Origin: a virus
Taxonomy: Duplodnaviria > Caudoviricetes
Strand: one strand, 5' to 3'
IMG/VR virus record: IMGVR_UViG_3300050509_000415
Coordinates: 5,253-69,252 of that record
DNA: 64,000 nucleotides
The notes under the pieces are model-generated. The model saw only the letters and a list, made by a program, of their open reading frames with translations, was not told the DNA's origin and did not search any database. Shown here in pieces: positions 12,987-26,827 of this stretch (position 1 is its first letter; every line of letters starts with the position of its first letter). The position numbers and the translations under genes were made by a program.

Positions 12987-13309
12987 CACTTCCCTCTGCG
13001 CCGCTCGGCATGTGTCTTTAGCCACTCCTTTACCTTCTTGGGCGAGCCGTGACAGGCGCTTGGGGCGTAGTTGTAGATCCACGAGCAGAGCCCGTGTAGG
13101 CCCACCCGGGAATTTAGGTCGGCCCGCGACAGGGCACCGAAGAGGTCGTTCTCGAGCACGCACTTGAGAAAATCGCCGGTCGGGATACCGCGCTCGATGT
13201 AAAGCCTAAGCCCTTCCCTAAGATGTTCGGGCACGTGAACGCTAAACTTCAGTAGGTCGTCATCGTCCATTGTGTAGGTGCCTTCTTCGGTCCATGTACG
13301 GTAGGTCAT
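12986..13309 (-). CDS. conserved phage hypothetical protein (YIERGIPTGDFL..VLENDL)
   Basis: Start revised to MTYRTW at 13309 (ATGA overlap). The motif is familiar from small phage proteins. Confidence 0.75.
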   Translation of the reverse strand: MTYRTWTEEGTYTMDDDDLLKFSVHVPEHLREGLRLYIERGIPTGDFLKCVLENDLFGALSRADLNSRVGLHGLCSWIYNYAPSACHGSPKKVKEWLKTHAERRRGK

Positions 13310-13590
13310 GATCTGCGACGCCTTGTAGATTTGGTAACAGTGCCGTAGCCGTCGCCGTAGCCGTTGCCGTAGCCGTCGCCGTTGCCGTAGCCGTAGCCGT
13401 AACCGTAGCCGTAGCCGTCGCCGTCGCCGTAGCCGTAGCCGTAGCCGTTGCCGTAGCCGTTGCCGTAGCCGTTGCCGTTGCCGTAGCCGTTGCCGTAGCC
13501 GTTGCCGTAGCCGTCGCCGTAGCCGTAGCCGTAGCCGTCGCCGTAGCCGTAGCCGTCGCCGTTGCCGTAGCCGTAGCCGATCGGTTTCAT
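13306..13590 (-). CDS. Gly-Tyr/Asn/Asp repeat protein
   Basis: MKPI-(G[YND])x39-GTVTKSTRRRRS. ATGA overlaps at both ends support this frame. Confidence 0.7.
   Translation of the reverse strand: MKPIGYGYGNGDGYGYGDGYGYGYGDGYGNGYGNGYGNGNGYGNGYGNGYGYGYGDGDGYGYGYGYGYGNGDGYGNGYGDGYGTVTKSTRRRRS
13345..13578 (-). repeat. tandem hexamer array GGC-(T/A/G)AC, 39 units
   Basis: Directly visible on the plus strand as gtagcc/gttgcc/gtcgcc units. There is one GGT variant. Confidence 0.97.
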
Positions 13591-13922
13591 GACTTGGTTC
13601 CCCAGTTATCTGGAACCGGAACACGGAAGATTTCGCTATCAGCCGGAATCTCTACATCGGCACATGGGCGCAGATCCGTCTTAACCAATGGATTAGCTAC
13701 CATCGCGGCGAACCCCTGGCCCGTCCACGAGAAGACGTGCAATGCCCTGGTGAGAACGATCTTCCCGGGCTTCGCGGTCTCATCGACATCGCCTGCAAAA
13801 ATCCATCCTCGATCGACCACCACTACAGCGCGTTTACCCGGTTTGGGTTGCACAGCTTCGACCGAATCGGCTTTGATGTACTTAACCCCGTTAATCGTAA
13901 GTTCGGTCACTTCTTGTTTCAT
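13587..13922 (-). CDS. conserved phage protein (DUF6948-like) that commonly precedes GYG-repeat ORFs
   Basis: AVVVVDRGWIFAG...LTRALHVFSW. From recollection, this family is typically paired with Gly-rich repeats. Confidence 0.7.
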   Translation of the reverse strand: MKQEVTELTINGVKYIKADSVEAVQPKPGKRAVVVVDRGWIFAGDVDETAKPGKIVLTRALHVFSWTGQGFAAMVANPLVKTDLRPCADVEIPADSEIFRVPVPDNWGTKS

Positions 13923-24885: not shown

Positions 24886-25192
24886 TCTCGCGCTCTAGGC
24901 CGGCGAAGCGCTGTTCGAATTCTGCTCGGCTTAGCATTGCAGTACGCATTTCGCGTAGCTCGACATGAATGAGTTGGATAGTTTCAAGCTTGCCGGTAAG
25001 TGCCGTAAGGGCGACATCGTGTGCCACGTCCTTCTTCTCAAGCGAATCCACCTTTTGGACGATGGTGTCAAAATCTTTATCTCGTCGCCGCTGAATATAA
25101 GCCAGCATCGGCAACAAAACTAGCGATATTACACCGCTAAGCAATCCGATTACGGCCGCGACAATCAAGCCGGTTGCTGTTGGTTCCATCAC
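24860..25192 (-). CDS. single-TM plus coiled-coil protein, holin- or spanin-like
   Basis: N-terminal TM (LIVAAVIGLLSGVISLVLLPMLAYI) and a coiled coil, immediately downstream of the endolysin. Confidence 0.55.
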   Translation of the reverse strand: MMEPTATGLIVAAVIGLLSGVISLVLLPMLAYIQRRRDKDFDTIVQKVDSLEKKDVAHDVALTALTGKLETIQLIHVELREMRTAMLSRAEFEQRFAGLEREIRESRRKD

Positions 25193-26091
25193 AGCCCTGC
25201 CGCATATCGGGACTTAGATCCGACCACACCGTCTGCTACGAGCCCGTGTGACGCCTGCCATGCCTGCGTCGCCTTCTTCGTCTTCTGTCCGTAAATCCCG
25301 TCGACCTTGAGTCCGGCGCCGTCTCGGTTAAGTACCGCCTGCCAGACCTTGACGTCATCGCCGTGGACACAGAACTTCAGCGACCGTACTTCGGGTTCCG
25401 TCACCCGGGTGACATCGGAACCGCCGTCGCCCCCCGGGGGAACTATATCGGGAATCATCGGAACGGTGGCAAGGTCCTGCTCTTCGGGGATGCCGAGTTC
25501 GTGTTCGCGGATTTTTAATAGGTCCAGGCGACCAATGATCTTGTTGTTCGCAATGCGCCAGTTTCCCTGGGCGTCCTTTGCAACCGTCTGAGACATATAT
25601 AGACGGCAGCTCGGTCCGGGTGGCTTTCCATTTACGGCATGGAACTGGCCATAATTCGCCGTATCACAGCTTACCGGGTTGCCGTTTGGGTCGTAGGAGA
25701 TCTCGGTTACTATCAGACTATGGGGTCCGAACCGGTTTAGAACCTGGACTCCGTCGCCAATACGGATGTCCCAACTACAACCCGGCCAGTAGCCGCGCCA
25801 GGCGTAGGCGGCGAATCTTTTTACACGGGTTAAGTTTTCACCTGGAAGCCAAGTATTTCCGCCGTCTTTACGGTTGGCCCAAGGACACTTCTGCTTCAGG
25901 TCGACACATTCGAGCGCCAGCCTAGACAAAAGATCTTCGCAGCAGGAGAGGTACTGACCGTGACCGTCTTTCATGGTCCATCGCCCTTCCGTTGTTAGGC
26001 GGCCGAACCCCTCGGGATCCTCGTAAATCGAAAACCCCGTGGTACCACCACATAGTTCAATTGCGCGACTAGAAAGGGTTCTTCGGTTCAC
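25189..26091 (-). CDS. endolysin-like protein with C-terminal peptidoglycan-binding domain
   Basis: PG_binding_1 pattern GDDVKVWQAVL...LKVDGIYGQKTKKATQAWQASHGLVADGVVG. The N-terminal domain is unassigned but has SCCEDL and GPHSLIV (possible Cys/His dyad). Confidence 0.75.
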   Translation of the reverse strand: MNRRTLSSRAIELCGGTTGFSIYEDPEGFGRLTTEGRWTMKDGHGQYLSCCEDLLSRLALECVDLKQKCPWANRKDGGNTWLPGENLTRVKRFAAYAWRGYWPGCSWDIRIGDGVQVLNRFGPHSLIVTEISYDPNGNPVSCDTANYGQFHAVNGKPPGPSCRLYMSQTVAKDAQGNWRIANNKIIGRLDLLKIREHELGIPEEQDLATVPMIPDIVPPGGDGGSDVTRVTEPEVRSLKFCVHGDDVKVWQAVLNRDGAGLKVDGIYGQKTKKATQAWQASHGLVADGVVGSKSRYAAGL

Positions 26092-26114
26092 CTACCAAGG
26101 GTATGCTACGGGGA

Positions 26115-26142
26115 TTGACAGAACAAACATAGGTCTTATCAA
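26115..26142 (+). promoter_or_regulatory. putative promoter TTGACA-N15-TTATC(AA) driving the array and RAMP-like gene
   Basis: Perfect -35 at 26115-26120 and TTATC at 26136-26140. The predicted start site (~26149) coincides with the start of the array. Confidence 0.7.
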
Positions 26143-26145
26143 AGT

Positions 26146-26245
26146 AGTTGTGCTGGGCATGGCCCTGCGGGGCGATGCAAGGTCTGGTTTGGCCGTGTAT
26201 GGCAAGGTCGGGCTTGGCGCGGCAAAGCAAGGAATGGCTCGGCTG
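26146..26245 (+). ncRNA. pentamer-periodic (GGY-NN)x20 array, candidate guide RNA
   Basis: 20 consecutive 5-nt units. Position 2 is G in 20/20, position 3 is pyrimidine in 19/20, position 1 is G in 14/20, and positions 4-5 vary freely. Confidence 0.8.
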
Positions 26246-26254
26246 AGGACCACG

Positions 26255-26827
26255 ATGAAAACAGTAAAAGTAGTGATCGAAGGTACATCCCCGTATTTAA
26301 TGCATAAATTTAGTGACGAAGCGGCGGCAGGGCGGACAACTCGCGCAACATTGGTTGAACAGAGGGTTCCTCGCGAAGAAGCCGAAAAGGTCGCTTATAG
26401 GGACCAAGACGGCGGGCTGTACTTCAACGGGTACTCAATCGCCAAAGCAATCGCTTCGGCCGGAGGGGCCCACAAACAACGCGGGTCTCGGAAAAGCCTG
26501 AAATATGTTGTCCCGGCCGCGGTTCGGATCGTAGATGACGCAGTAAAACTACGGAAACTAGACGGTCGAGTCCAGAAGGATTTTGAGGTCGATTCTAGAC
26601 CGGTTACAATCCCTGCTACCAAAGGTCGGGTGTTACGGCATAGGCCCAGGTTTGACGAATGGCGGGCGGAATTCGAACTCAAGATTTTCGAGAATCTTAT
26701 TGAACCAAAGACGGTTCATCAACTGCTCAACGAAGCTGGCGAGCAGGTTGGAATAGGAGATTTCCGACCTGAGAAATCTGGTCCATTTGGCTGTTTTCGC
26801 GTTGTCGAGTGGAAAGAGCTAGTATAA
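26255..26827 (+). CDS. RAMP/Cas7-like protein (190 aa), candidate effector of an RNA-guided system
   Basis: Start revised to MKTVKV (GAGGAC RBS). Motifs VKVVIEGTSPYLMH, GGLYFNGYSIAKAIASA, RPRFDEWRAEFELKI and the G-rich loop GEQVGIGDFRPEKSGPFGCFRV follow RAMP order. Confidence 0.7.
   Translation: MKTVKVVIEGTSPYLMHKFSDEAAAGRTTRATLVEQRVPREEAEKVAYRDQDGGLYFNGYSIAKAIASAGGAHKQRGSRKSLKYVVPAAVRIVDDAVKLRKLDGRVQKDFEVDSRPVTIPATKGRVLRHRPRFDEWRAEFELKIFENLIEPKTVHQLLNEAGEQVGIGDFRPEKSGPFGCFRVVEWKELV

What the first reader, a model, noticed from the sequence alone, without database searches (positions are those of the whole stretch)
26255..26827. Stand-alone RAMP/Cas7-like protein with no other cas genes or CRISPR array
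The motif order parallels Cas7/Csm3-type RAMPs: first strand plus P (VKVVIEGTSPYLMH), a 'PYIPGSSLKGA'-like segment (GGLYFNGYSIAKAIASA), a basic thumb (VTIPATKGRVLRHRPRF), a core strand (WRAEFELKI), and a helix with Gly-rich loop and last strand (LLNEAGEQVGIGDFRPEKSGPFGCFRV). RAMPs are established to polymerise along guide RNA, one subunit per fixed number of nucleotides. One subunit per 5-nt unit would explain the adjacent array. No nuclease, Cas1/2 or Cas6 is nearby, so a minimal one-protein system acting by binding or repression is inferred.
Basis: inference. Interest (0 to 1): 0.92.

Follow-up and report, generated by a model that had tools for sequence, protein, structure and literature searches.

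The report
Phage VIPR system: Vipr plus vrRNA
This phage gene encodes a small Cas7-like (RAMP) protein that sits right after a 20-unit GGY-NN pentamer repeat RNA; together they are a new example of the VIPR RNA-guided DNA-silencing systems first described in 2026 preprints, so the find is real but the kind is already known.

Summary
The ORF at 26255-26827 (+) encodes 190 aa. Its AlphaFold model (pLDDT 85.5) matches almost only Cas7-group RAMPs: Csm3 by Foldseek at E 1e-6, Cmr4 and Csm3 by VIA-align at Z 11.2 and 10.6. The 69-kb virus record has no Pfam RAMP, no Cas1 and no CRISPR array.

Twenty GGY-NN pentamers (26146-26245) lie directly upstream, 9 nt from the ATG. In 85 of 87 sequences scanned (86 related loci plus the window), the same kind of array abuts the gene on the same strand.

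This is a VIPR system (bioRxiv 10.64898/2026.04.26.720920 and .720927). Vipr protomers polymerise one per repeat, hold the GGY bases and present the NN bases. The NN bases pair with dsDNA under a one-nucleotide-skip rule and silence transcription of rival mobile elements.

The protein aligns over its full length (E 4e-14) with the SUSP1-clade Vipr. It keeps the GGY-contact residues as H17, R130, D169, F170 and R171.

This locus differs from the characterised type II systems in four ways:
- It has no vap gene.
- It has a single vrRNA.
- It has no structured 3' tail.
- The array runs into the gene's own ribosome-binding site.

I found no convincing natural target. The locus is a new member of a known kind.

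The parts
26115..26142 (+). Candidate sigma-70-like promoter for the vrRNA-vipr transcript: TTGACA at 26115-26120, a 16-nt spacer, then TATCAA at 26137-26142. It would start transcription at about the first repeat unit.
   Evidence: Read directly from the sequence. The consensus scanner did not call it, because the second hexamer lacks T at position 6. This is inference only.
26146..26245 (+). vrRNA repeat tract of 20 tandem GGY-NN pentamers. The NN guide positions read TG TG AT CC GG GA AA CT TT CG AT AA CG TT GC AA AA AT TC TG.
   Evidence: position 2 is G in 20/20 units, position 3 is C or T in 19/20, position 1 is G in 14/20, and positions 4-5 are near-uniform. The run length far exceeds surrogates. 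The same architecture sits next to homologs in 85 of 87 sequences scanned. The tract has no significant RNA fold (z -1.0).
26244..26254 (+). Junction between array and gene. The Shine-Dalgarno (GAGGA) overlaps the last repeat units and only 9 nt separate the array from the ATG. There is no room for the structured 3' tail seen in type II vrRNAs.
26255..26827 (+). vipr gene: a 190-aa minimal RAMP (P0001) with an RRM core, a thumb hairpin at about residues 111-133 and a G-loop at 166-179. The GGY-contact residues are H17, R130, D169, F170 and R171.
   Evidence: (phrog_4652). Residue roles come from the preprint read.

Best explanation
The locus 26115-26827 is a VIPR (Viral Interference Programmable Repeat) system carried by an uncultivated phage. 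It has a vipr gene encoding a minimal, phage-type RAMP and a single vrRNA made of 20 GGY-NN pentamers that forms the leader of the same transcript.

By homology with the characterised SUSP1-clade system, the mechanism would run as follows:
- Vipr protomers polymerise along the repeat tract, one protomer per pentamer.
- Two neighbouring protomers clamp each GGY: H17 and D169 on G1, R130 and F170 on G2, R171 on Y3.
- The NN dinucleotides are exposed and pair with double-stranded DNA that carries the same dinucleotides separated by one skipped base.
- The bound filament blocks transcription of the target, most likely a gene of a competing phage, satellite or prophage.

Shown here: the fold, the homology, the conserved contact residues, the array and its co-occurrence with the gene. 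Inferred: RNP formation, DNA targeting and the identity of the target.

This locus is a vap-less, single-guide, tail-less variant. Its array abuts the gene's own ribosome-binding site. The gene lies on the opposite strand inside the lysis/tail module and has lower GC (50.4%) than the genome (57.8%), like a moron.
For: - Fold: the AF2 model matches Cas7-group RAMPs almost exclusively.
- Homology: full-length BLASTP match (27% identity, E 4e-14) to the Felixounavirus ESCO50 protein. That protein is 95.9% identical to the SUSP2 protein. It carries exactly the residue numbers named in the cryo-EM preprint: H17, R138, D177, W178, R179.
- Contact residues: their equivalents in P0001 are invariant or nearly so across 33 homologs, except the W178 equivalent F170, which stays aromatic (Phe, occasionally Tyr).
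- Array: 20 GGY-NN units directly upstream on the same strand.
- Co-occurrence: 85 of 87 sequences scanned carry such arrays next to the gene. The 171 distinct arrays are G 90% / G 98% / Y 98% at positions 1-3 and roughly uniform at positions 4-5.
- Reference loci: ESCO50 and LESphi2 show the same arrays.
- Literature: VIPR definition and mechanism.
- No self-target: best match in the own genome is 25/40, as reported for natural VIPR guides.
Against: - No natural target was found. Exact sub-pattern scans of viral, metagenome and genome collections gave only chance-level extensions. One exception is a 33/40 match in a response-regulator gene, where the skipped base falls on codon position 1, not the wobble position.
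- No vap gene is present, and the clade has no conserved neighbour.
- No 3' tail or pseudoknot is evident.
- Identity to the experimentally studied Vipr is only 27%, so the one-nucleotide-skip rule is extrapolated.
- My attempt to test the skip rule on 369 guide windows from relatives, against 1.56 Mb of local sequence (both strands), could not discriminate between rules.
- No sigma-70 promoter was called by the scanner.
Confidence: 0.88

Rival explanations
1. The protein binds the pentamer tract only as a translational operator of its own mRNA, a TRAP-like autoregulator, and has no DNA-guiding role.
For: The array ends 9 nt from the ATG and overlaps the Shine-Dalgarno. Several close relatives have a single upstream array with an 8-50 nt gap. 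No target was found.
Against: Many relatives carry 2-13 further arrays downstream of the gene, and some tracts of up to 98 units lie upstream of it; the downstream arrays are not leaders of vipr. The NN positions are hypervariable while GGY is fixed. That pattern is expected for guides, not for an operator. Homologs were shown experimentally to guide DNA binding. Autoregulation may still exist in addition.
Confidence: 0.06
2. The protein is a phage anti-CRISPR decoy: a Cas7 mimic that poisons host type I/III effector complexes or soaks up host crRNA.
For: The fold matches Csm3, Cmr4 and Cas7. Phages are known to encode Cas mimics and RNA anti-CRISPRs (general knowledge).
Against: No sequence-level similarity to any cas family. 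The protein keeps residues that recognise GGY specifically. It always travels with its own GGY-NN RNA of 5-nt period, not the 6-nt period of crRNA backbones.
Confidence: 0.03
3. The locus is a decaying or inactive remnant, for example a guide whose target no longer exists or a system disabled by loss of tail and vap.
For: No vap, no tail and no target were found.
Against: The ORF is intact and every conserved family residue is present. The array is regular, with 19/20 units fitting NGY. The vap-less, short-gap layout is shared by many relatives at 50-63% identity, which indicates a maintained architecture.
Confidence: 0.03

Closest known systems
VIPR type II systems of Escherichia phage SUSP1 and a Pseudomonas fulva prophage (bioRxiv 10.64898/2026.04.26.720920; cryo-EM in 10.64898/2026.04.26.720927)
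   Same: A phage-encoded protein of about 190 aa with a single RRM, thumb and G-loop. The GGY-contact residues are conserved. Tandem GGY-NN pentamers lie beside the gene on the same strand. There is no CRISPR array and there are no cas genes.
   Different: Only 27% identity to the SUSP1-clade protein. No vap1-like downstream gene. One vrRNA rather than four. Twenty units against the 9-16 reported. No pseudoknot tail. The repeat tract is the immediate 5' leader of vipr and overlaps its ribosome-binding site. The paper's type number could not be assigned because its supplementary tables are not held. The absence of vap would fit the one type that has no vap listed (inference).
CRISPR type III Cas7 backbone subunits (Csm3, Cmr4) and type VII Cas7
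   Same: The same RAMP fold (Z 10-11, TM about 0.55). A thumb flips bases at a fixed period and a G-rich loop binds RNA. The subunits polymerise along a guide RNA.
   Different: No detectable sequence-family membership. The period is 5 nt with sequence-specific capture of three bases, against 6 nt with one flipped base. The guide is non-contiguous. No Cas5, Cas6, Cas10 or Cas1/2 partners are present. The system is viral, not cellular.
TRAP (trp RNA-binding attenuation protein) and its (G/U)AG-NN repeat leader
   Same: One subunit binds each roughly 5-nt repeat in an mRNA leader next to a ribosome-binding site.
   Different: The fold is unrelated (an 11-mer beta-wheel). TRAP has no guide function. 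I used it only as a functional analogy for possible self-translation control.

Membership tests
VIPR (Vipr + vrRNA) | Vipr protein has a minimal RAMP fold: single RRM core, thumb hairpin and glycine-rich loop | tested here: met
   AF2 model with pLDDT 85.5. RAMP matches only at the top of Foldseek and VIA-align. Thumb at about residues 111-133, G-loop at 166-179.
VIPR (Vipr + vrRNA) | Sequence homology to an experimentally characterised Vipr | tested here: met
   BLASTP E 4e-14 over the full length to the ESCO50 protein. That protein is 95.9% identical to the SUSP2 protein and its residue numbering matches the cryo-EM paper. SUSP1 itself was not among the rows printed.
VIPR (Vipr + vrRNA) | Residues that read GGY (H17, R138, D177, W178, R179 in the solved complex) | tested here: met
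   The equivalents are H17, R130, D169, F170 (aromatic for Trp) and R171. R130, D169 and R171 are invariant and H17 is at least 90% conserved in 33 homologs.
VIPR (Vipr + vrRNA) | Tandem GGY-NN (YNNGG) repeats of at least 4 units beside vipr, with fixed GGY and hypervariable NN | tested here: met
   Twenty units at 26146-26245. 85 of 87 sequences scanned have such arrays. Composition over 3,524 units is given.
VIPR (Vipr + vrRNA) | Invariable structured 3' tail (a pseudoknot in the SUSP1 clade) capping the repeat tract | tested here: not met
   The array ends 9 nt before the ATG. No significant fold is predicted (z -1.0). Relatives have short unstructured gaps or 14-22 nt separators. The preprint describes other array architectures, so this feature defines type II rather than the whole class.
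VIPR (Vipr + vrRNA) | Accessory vap gene in operon with vipr | tested here: not met
   The next genes on both sides are on the minus strand. No conserved neighbour family appears in 89 loci. The preprint says 'typically' and names six vap genes for seven types.
VIPR (Vipr + vrRNA) | Natural DNA target matching the NN code under the one-nucleotide-skip rule (at least 80% NN match), and no self-target | tested here: inconclusive
   No self-target: best 25/40. Exact 8-10-unit sub-pattern scans of the viral, metagenome and genome collections gave a best full-length match of 33/40 in a receiver-domain gene with the wrong codon phase, and 31/40 in a gut MAG gene. A mismatch-tolerant search of whole collections was not possible.
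VIPR (Vipr + vrRNA) | Vipr-vrRNA filament formation and transcriptional repression | not testable with these tools
   Needs expression, pull-down, cryo-EM and a reporter assay.
CRISPR-Cas Cas7 (Csm3/Cmr4/Csf2 families) | Match to curated cas/RAMP sequence profiles | tested here: not met
   No hit in Pfam, PADLOC or NCBIfam. PF03787 is absent from the whole record.
CRISPR-Cas Cas7 (Csm3/Cmr4/Csf2 families) | Genomic association with a CRISPR array and other cas genes | tested here: not met
   No Cas1, no RAMP profile hit and no CRISPR-like repeats in the 69-kb record. The neighbours are an endolysin and tail or virion genes.
CRISPR-Cas Cas7 (Csm3/Cmr4/Csf2 families) | RAMP fold with thumb and G-loop | tested here: met

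The most novel reading that the evidence does not exclude
In this vap-less, tail-less clade the guide RNA is the 5' leader of the vipr mRNA itself and runs into the Shine-Dalgarno. Filament assembly on the leader would then shut off further Vipr translation. This would be a built-in dosage control that couples protein supply to the number of free repeat units, and it is not described in the VIPR preprints I read. Relatives of this clade also carry uninterrupted tracts of 97-98 units, far beyond the 9-16 reported. This suggests either very long filaments or a processing mode that needs no tail.
Probability: 0.25. Interest if true: 0.5.

Novelty: new member of a known kind. Interest (0 to 1): 0.35.

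Why it matters
VIPR is a newly described RNA-guided DNA-recognition system proposed to predate CRISPR. This locus adds a divergent, environmentally abundant clade with about 1,300 homolog clusters in metagenomes. It works with the barest parts list: one 190-aa protein and one leader-embedded guide, with no accessory gene and no structured tail. That helps define what is truly essential for VIPR function. It also offers a compact scaffold for engineering. It is not a new discovery of kind.

The case carries a practical annotation lesson as well. Gene callers read through the repeat tract and produce false N-terminal extensions.

Tried and rejected
- Tandem Repeats Finder finds nothing in the array because only 3 of 5 positions are fixed. 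I used a phase-specific scanner instead.
- Rfam has no family for the arrays in the window or in seven related loci.
- I rejected the 262-aa GTG-started ORF. Its extension is the array read in frame.
- I rejected coding of the array, because a 5-nt period is incompatible with codons and stops occur in relatives.
- I considered a G-quadruplex-only or host-RBP sponge reading and dropped it once the fold and the literature explained the pairing with the protein.
- Target hunt. The self genome gives 25/40. Five viral scans, one metagenome scan and one genome scan used exact 8-10-unit sub-patterns, then extension over all 20 units. The best hits were a receiver-domain motif (DFITKPF...) at 33/40 with the skip on codon position 1, and an unrelated secreted protein at 31/40. 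I judged these as not convincing. Receiver domains are so abundant that chance is plausible, and the host GC does not fit.
- Skip-rule test on 369 guide windows from relatives against 1.56 Mb of local sequence (both strands): all four skip lengths gave the same distribution, because the database is too small.
- The preprint's supplementary tables are not held, so no type number could be assigned.
- The portal-like protein has no match in GenBank phages, so the host remains unknown.

Full report
**Observation.** The ORF lister also gives a 262-aa version from GTG 26039. That extension is the upstream repeat tract read in frame. Homologs begin at the MKT methionine, and a GAGGA ribosome-binding site lies just before ATG 26255.

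P0001 has no Pfam, NCBIfam or PADLOC match. It belongs to phrog_4652, a phage family of unknown function (E 1e-22).

**Fold.** I built an alignment of 33 homologs (A1). It gave an AlphaFold2 model with mean pLDDT 85.5 and pTM 0.80. Two independent structure searches agree.
- Foldseek against the PDB returned 95 hits at E<=1e-3. All listed hits are Csm3, type VII Cas7 or Cas7-11 domains; the best is 6xn3_F at E 1e-6 and TM 0.57.
- VIA-align against 48,161 representative chains put only RAMPs in its top 34 rows. The leaders are Cmr4 6s6b_I (Z 11.2) and Csm3 6ae2_B (Z 10.6, 147 residues, rmsd 3.2).

The Cas7-like RAMP claim is therefore correct at fold level.

**The array.** From 26146 to 26245 there are 20 consecutive pentamers of the form GGY-NN. 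Position 2 is G in 20/20 units, position 3 is C or T in 19/20, and position 1 is G in 14/20. Positions 4 and 5 are close to uniform. The longest uninterrupted run is 17 units, against a maximum of 9 in 200 first-order Markov surrogates and 5 anywhere else in the window.

The tract ends 9 nt before the ATG and overlaps the ribosome-binding site. It has no significant predicted RNA structure (z -1.0). A possible promoter (TTGACA, 16 nt, TATCAA; 26115-26142) would start transcription at about the first unit. The scanner did not call it, so this is inference.

**Relatives.**
- P0001 has 1,335 homolog clusters in the metagenome protein collection, mostly 50-63% identical and all unnamed.
- Distant homologs (25-30% identity) occur in Felixounaviruses, Pseudomonas phage LESphi2, and Gordonia and Mycobacterium phages.
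- I fetched 86 related loci and scanned them together with the window, 87 sequences in all. In 85 of the 87, arrays of the same kind lie immediately beside the gene on the same strand.
- The 171 distinct arrays hold 3,524 units. Composition is G 90%, G 98% and Y 98% at positions 1-3, and about uniform at positions 4-5. The median is 17 units and the range is 8-98.
- Multi-array loci have conserved 14-48-nt separators between tracts.
- Gene callers often translate through the arrays. This explains the odd N- or C-terminal extensions of P0051, P0062, P0107 and P0047.

**Identification.** A full-text search found four 2026 preprints that describe exactly this.
- The discovery paper (10.64898/2026.04.26.720920) defines VIPR systems. 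These consist of a phage-encoded minimal RAMP (Vipr) and vrRNAs made of GGY/NN tandem repeats. The NN bases pair with double-stranded DNA under a one-nucleotide-skip rule, with no PAM. The result is transcriptional repression of competing phages, satellites and prophage regulators.
- The cryo-EM paper (10.64898/2026.04.26.720927) shows one protomer per repeat. It names the contacts: H17 and D177 on G1, R138 and W178 on G2, R179 on Y3.
- The third paper (10.64898/2026.10.15.759431) covers competition with phage satellites and solo vrRNAs.
- The fourth paper (10.64898/2026.10.21.760802) recovers VIPR arrays from intergenic sequence with a genomic language model.

**Membership test.**
- The Felixounavirus ESCO50 homolog is 95.9% identical to the SUSP2 protein. 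It carries exactly the residue numbers above. P0001 aligns to it over its full length (27% identity, E 4e-14).
- The equivalent residues in P0001 are H17, R130, D169, F170 and R171. R130, D169 and R171 are invariant, and H17 is at least 90% conserved in the 33-sequence alignment.
- ESCO50 and LESphi2 show GGY-NN arrays with structured tails and a small downstream gene, as the paper describes for type II.

On this evidence the window locus is a VIPR system.

**How this locus differs from the characterised type II systems.**
- It has no vap gene. Both neighbours are on the opposite strand: an endolysin at 25189-26091 and virion or tail-like genes from 26828 onward. Clustering the neighbours of 89 loci found no conserved partner.
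- It has one vrRNA with 20 units.
- It has no structured tail.
- The repeat tract is the leader of vipr itself.
- The gene has 50.4% GC in a 57.8% GC genome and sits antisense inside the late module, like a moron.
- The whole record is a 69,252-bp IMG/VR virus contig estimated at 51% complete. It has no Pfam RAMP hit, no Cas1 and no CRISPR-like repeats.

**Target.** I converted the 20 NN dinucleotides to the one-skip pattern.
- The own genome gives at best 25/40, so there is no self-target.
- Whole-collection scans accept only exact patterns. I therefore used 8-10-unit sub-patterns and scored all 20 units around each hit.
- The best hit, 33/40, lies in a response-regulator receiver motif in a 44% GC metagenome contig. 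There the skipped base falls on codon position 1 rather than the wobble position.
- The next hit, 31/40, lies in an unrelated gene of a gut MAG.
- Neither hit is convincing, so the natural target remains unknown.
- A local test of the four skip rules with 369 guide windows from relatives could not discriminate between them, because the database was too small.

**Verdict.** The kind is already described, so this is a new, divergent member. The points worth follow-up are:
- the minimal, vap-less, tail-less layout;
- the leader-embedded guide that could throttle Vipr translation;
- the very long tracts (97-98 units) in relatives.

Noticed in passing
L057:4415-4899 and L061:3458-3947: Related viral contigs carry uninterrupted GGY-NN tracts of 97 and 98 units (about 490 nt). 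This is far longer than the 9-16 units reported for characterised vrRNAs. They may be the 'staggered arrays' mentioned in the preprint, or very long filaments.
   Followed up: no
L066:4502-5691: Thirteen tandem vrRNA-like tracts of 12-19 units. Nearly all end in ...GGTAA GGAAT GGTTT, and most are separated by a short conserved 14-15-nt separator, a few gaps being longer (17-54 nt). There is no structured tail, so this array architecture differs from type II.
   Followed up: partly
window 26039-26254; proteins P0051, P0062, P0107, P0047: ORF callers read through the repeat tract. The results are a spurious 262-aa ORF in the window and Ala/Arg/Gly-rich N- or C-terminal extensions on database homologs.
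   Followed up: yes
window 13299-13621: Sixteen overlapping copies of a tandem repeat with 12/18-nt spacing. It is probably a repetitive coding segment and is unrelated to the finding.
   Followed up: no
L194:2273-2332 and L195:2464-2523: The window's NN code matches the receiver-domain DFITKPF...EE..AR motif of REC-AlbA_2-like proteins on the reverse strand, at 33/40 and 29/40. The skipped base falls at codon position 1. This is probably chance helped by family abundance, but I did not exclude it.
   Followed up: partly
window 1-64000 (G000:C1): The host phage is an uncultivated virus, with the record about 51% complete. It encodes a family A DNA polymerase, a DnaB-like helicase, an SbcD-like exonuclease, a portal-like protein and a tail spike. 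The portal-like protein has no tblastn match in 50,697 GenBank phage records.
   Followed up: partly
L004:4445-5014: In one relative a 189-aa ORF overlaps the start of vipr by 14 nt and follows an ERF recombinase gene. It is not conserved across the clade and I did not examine it further.
   Followed up: no
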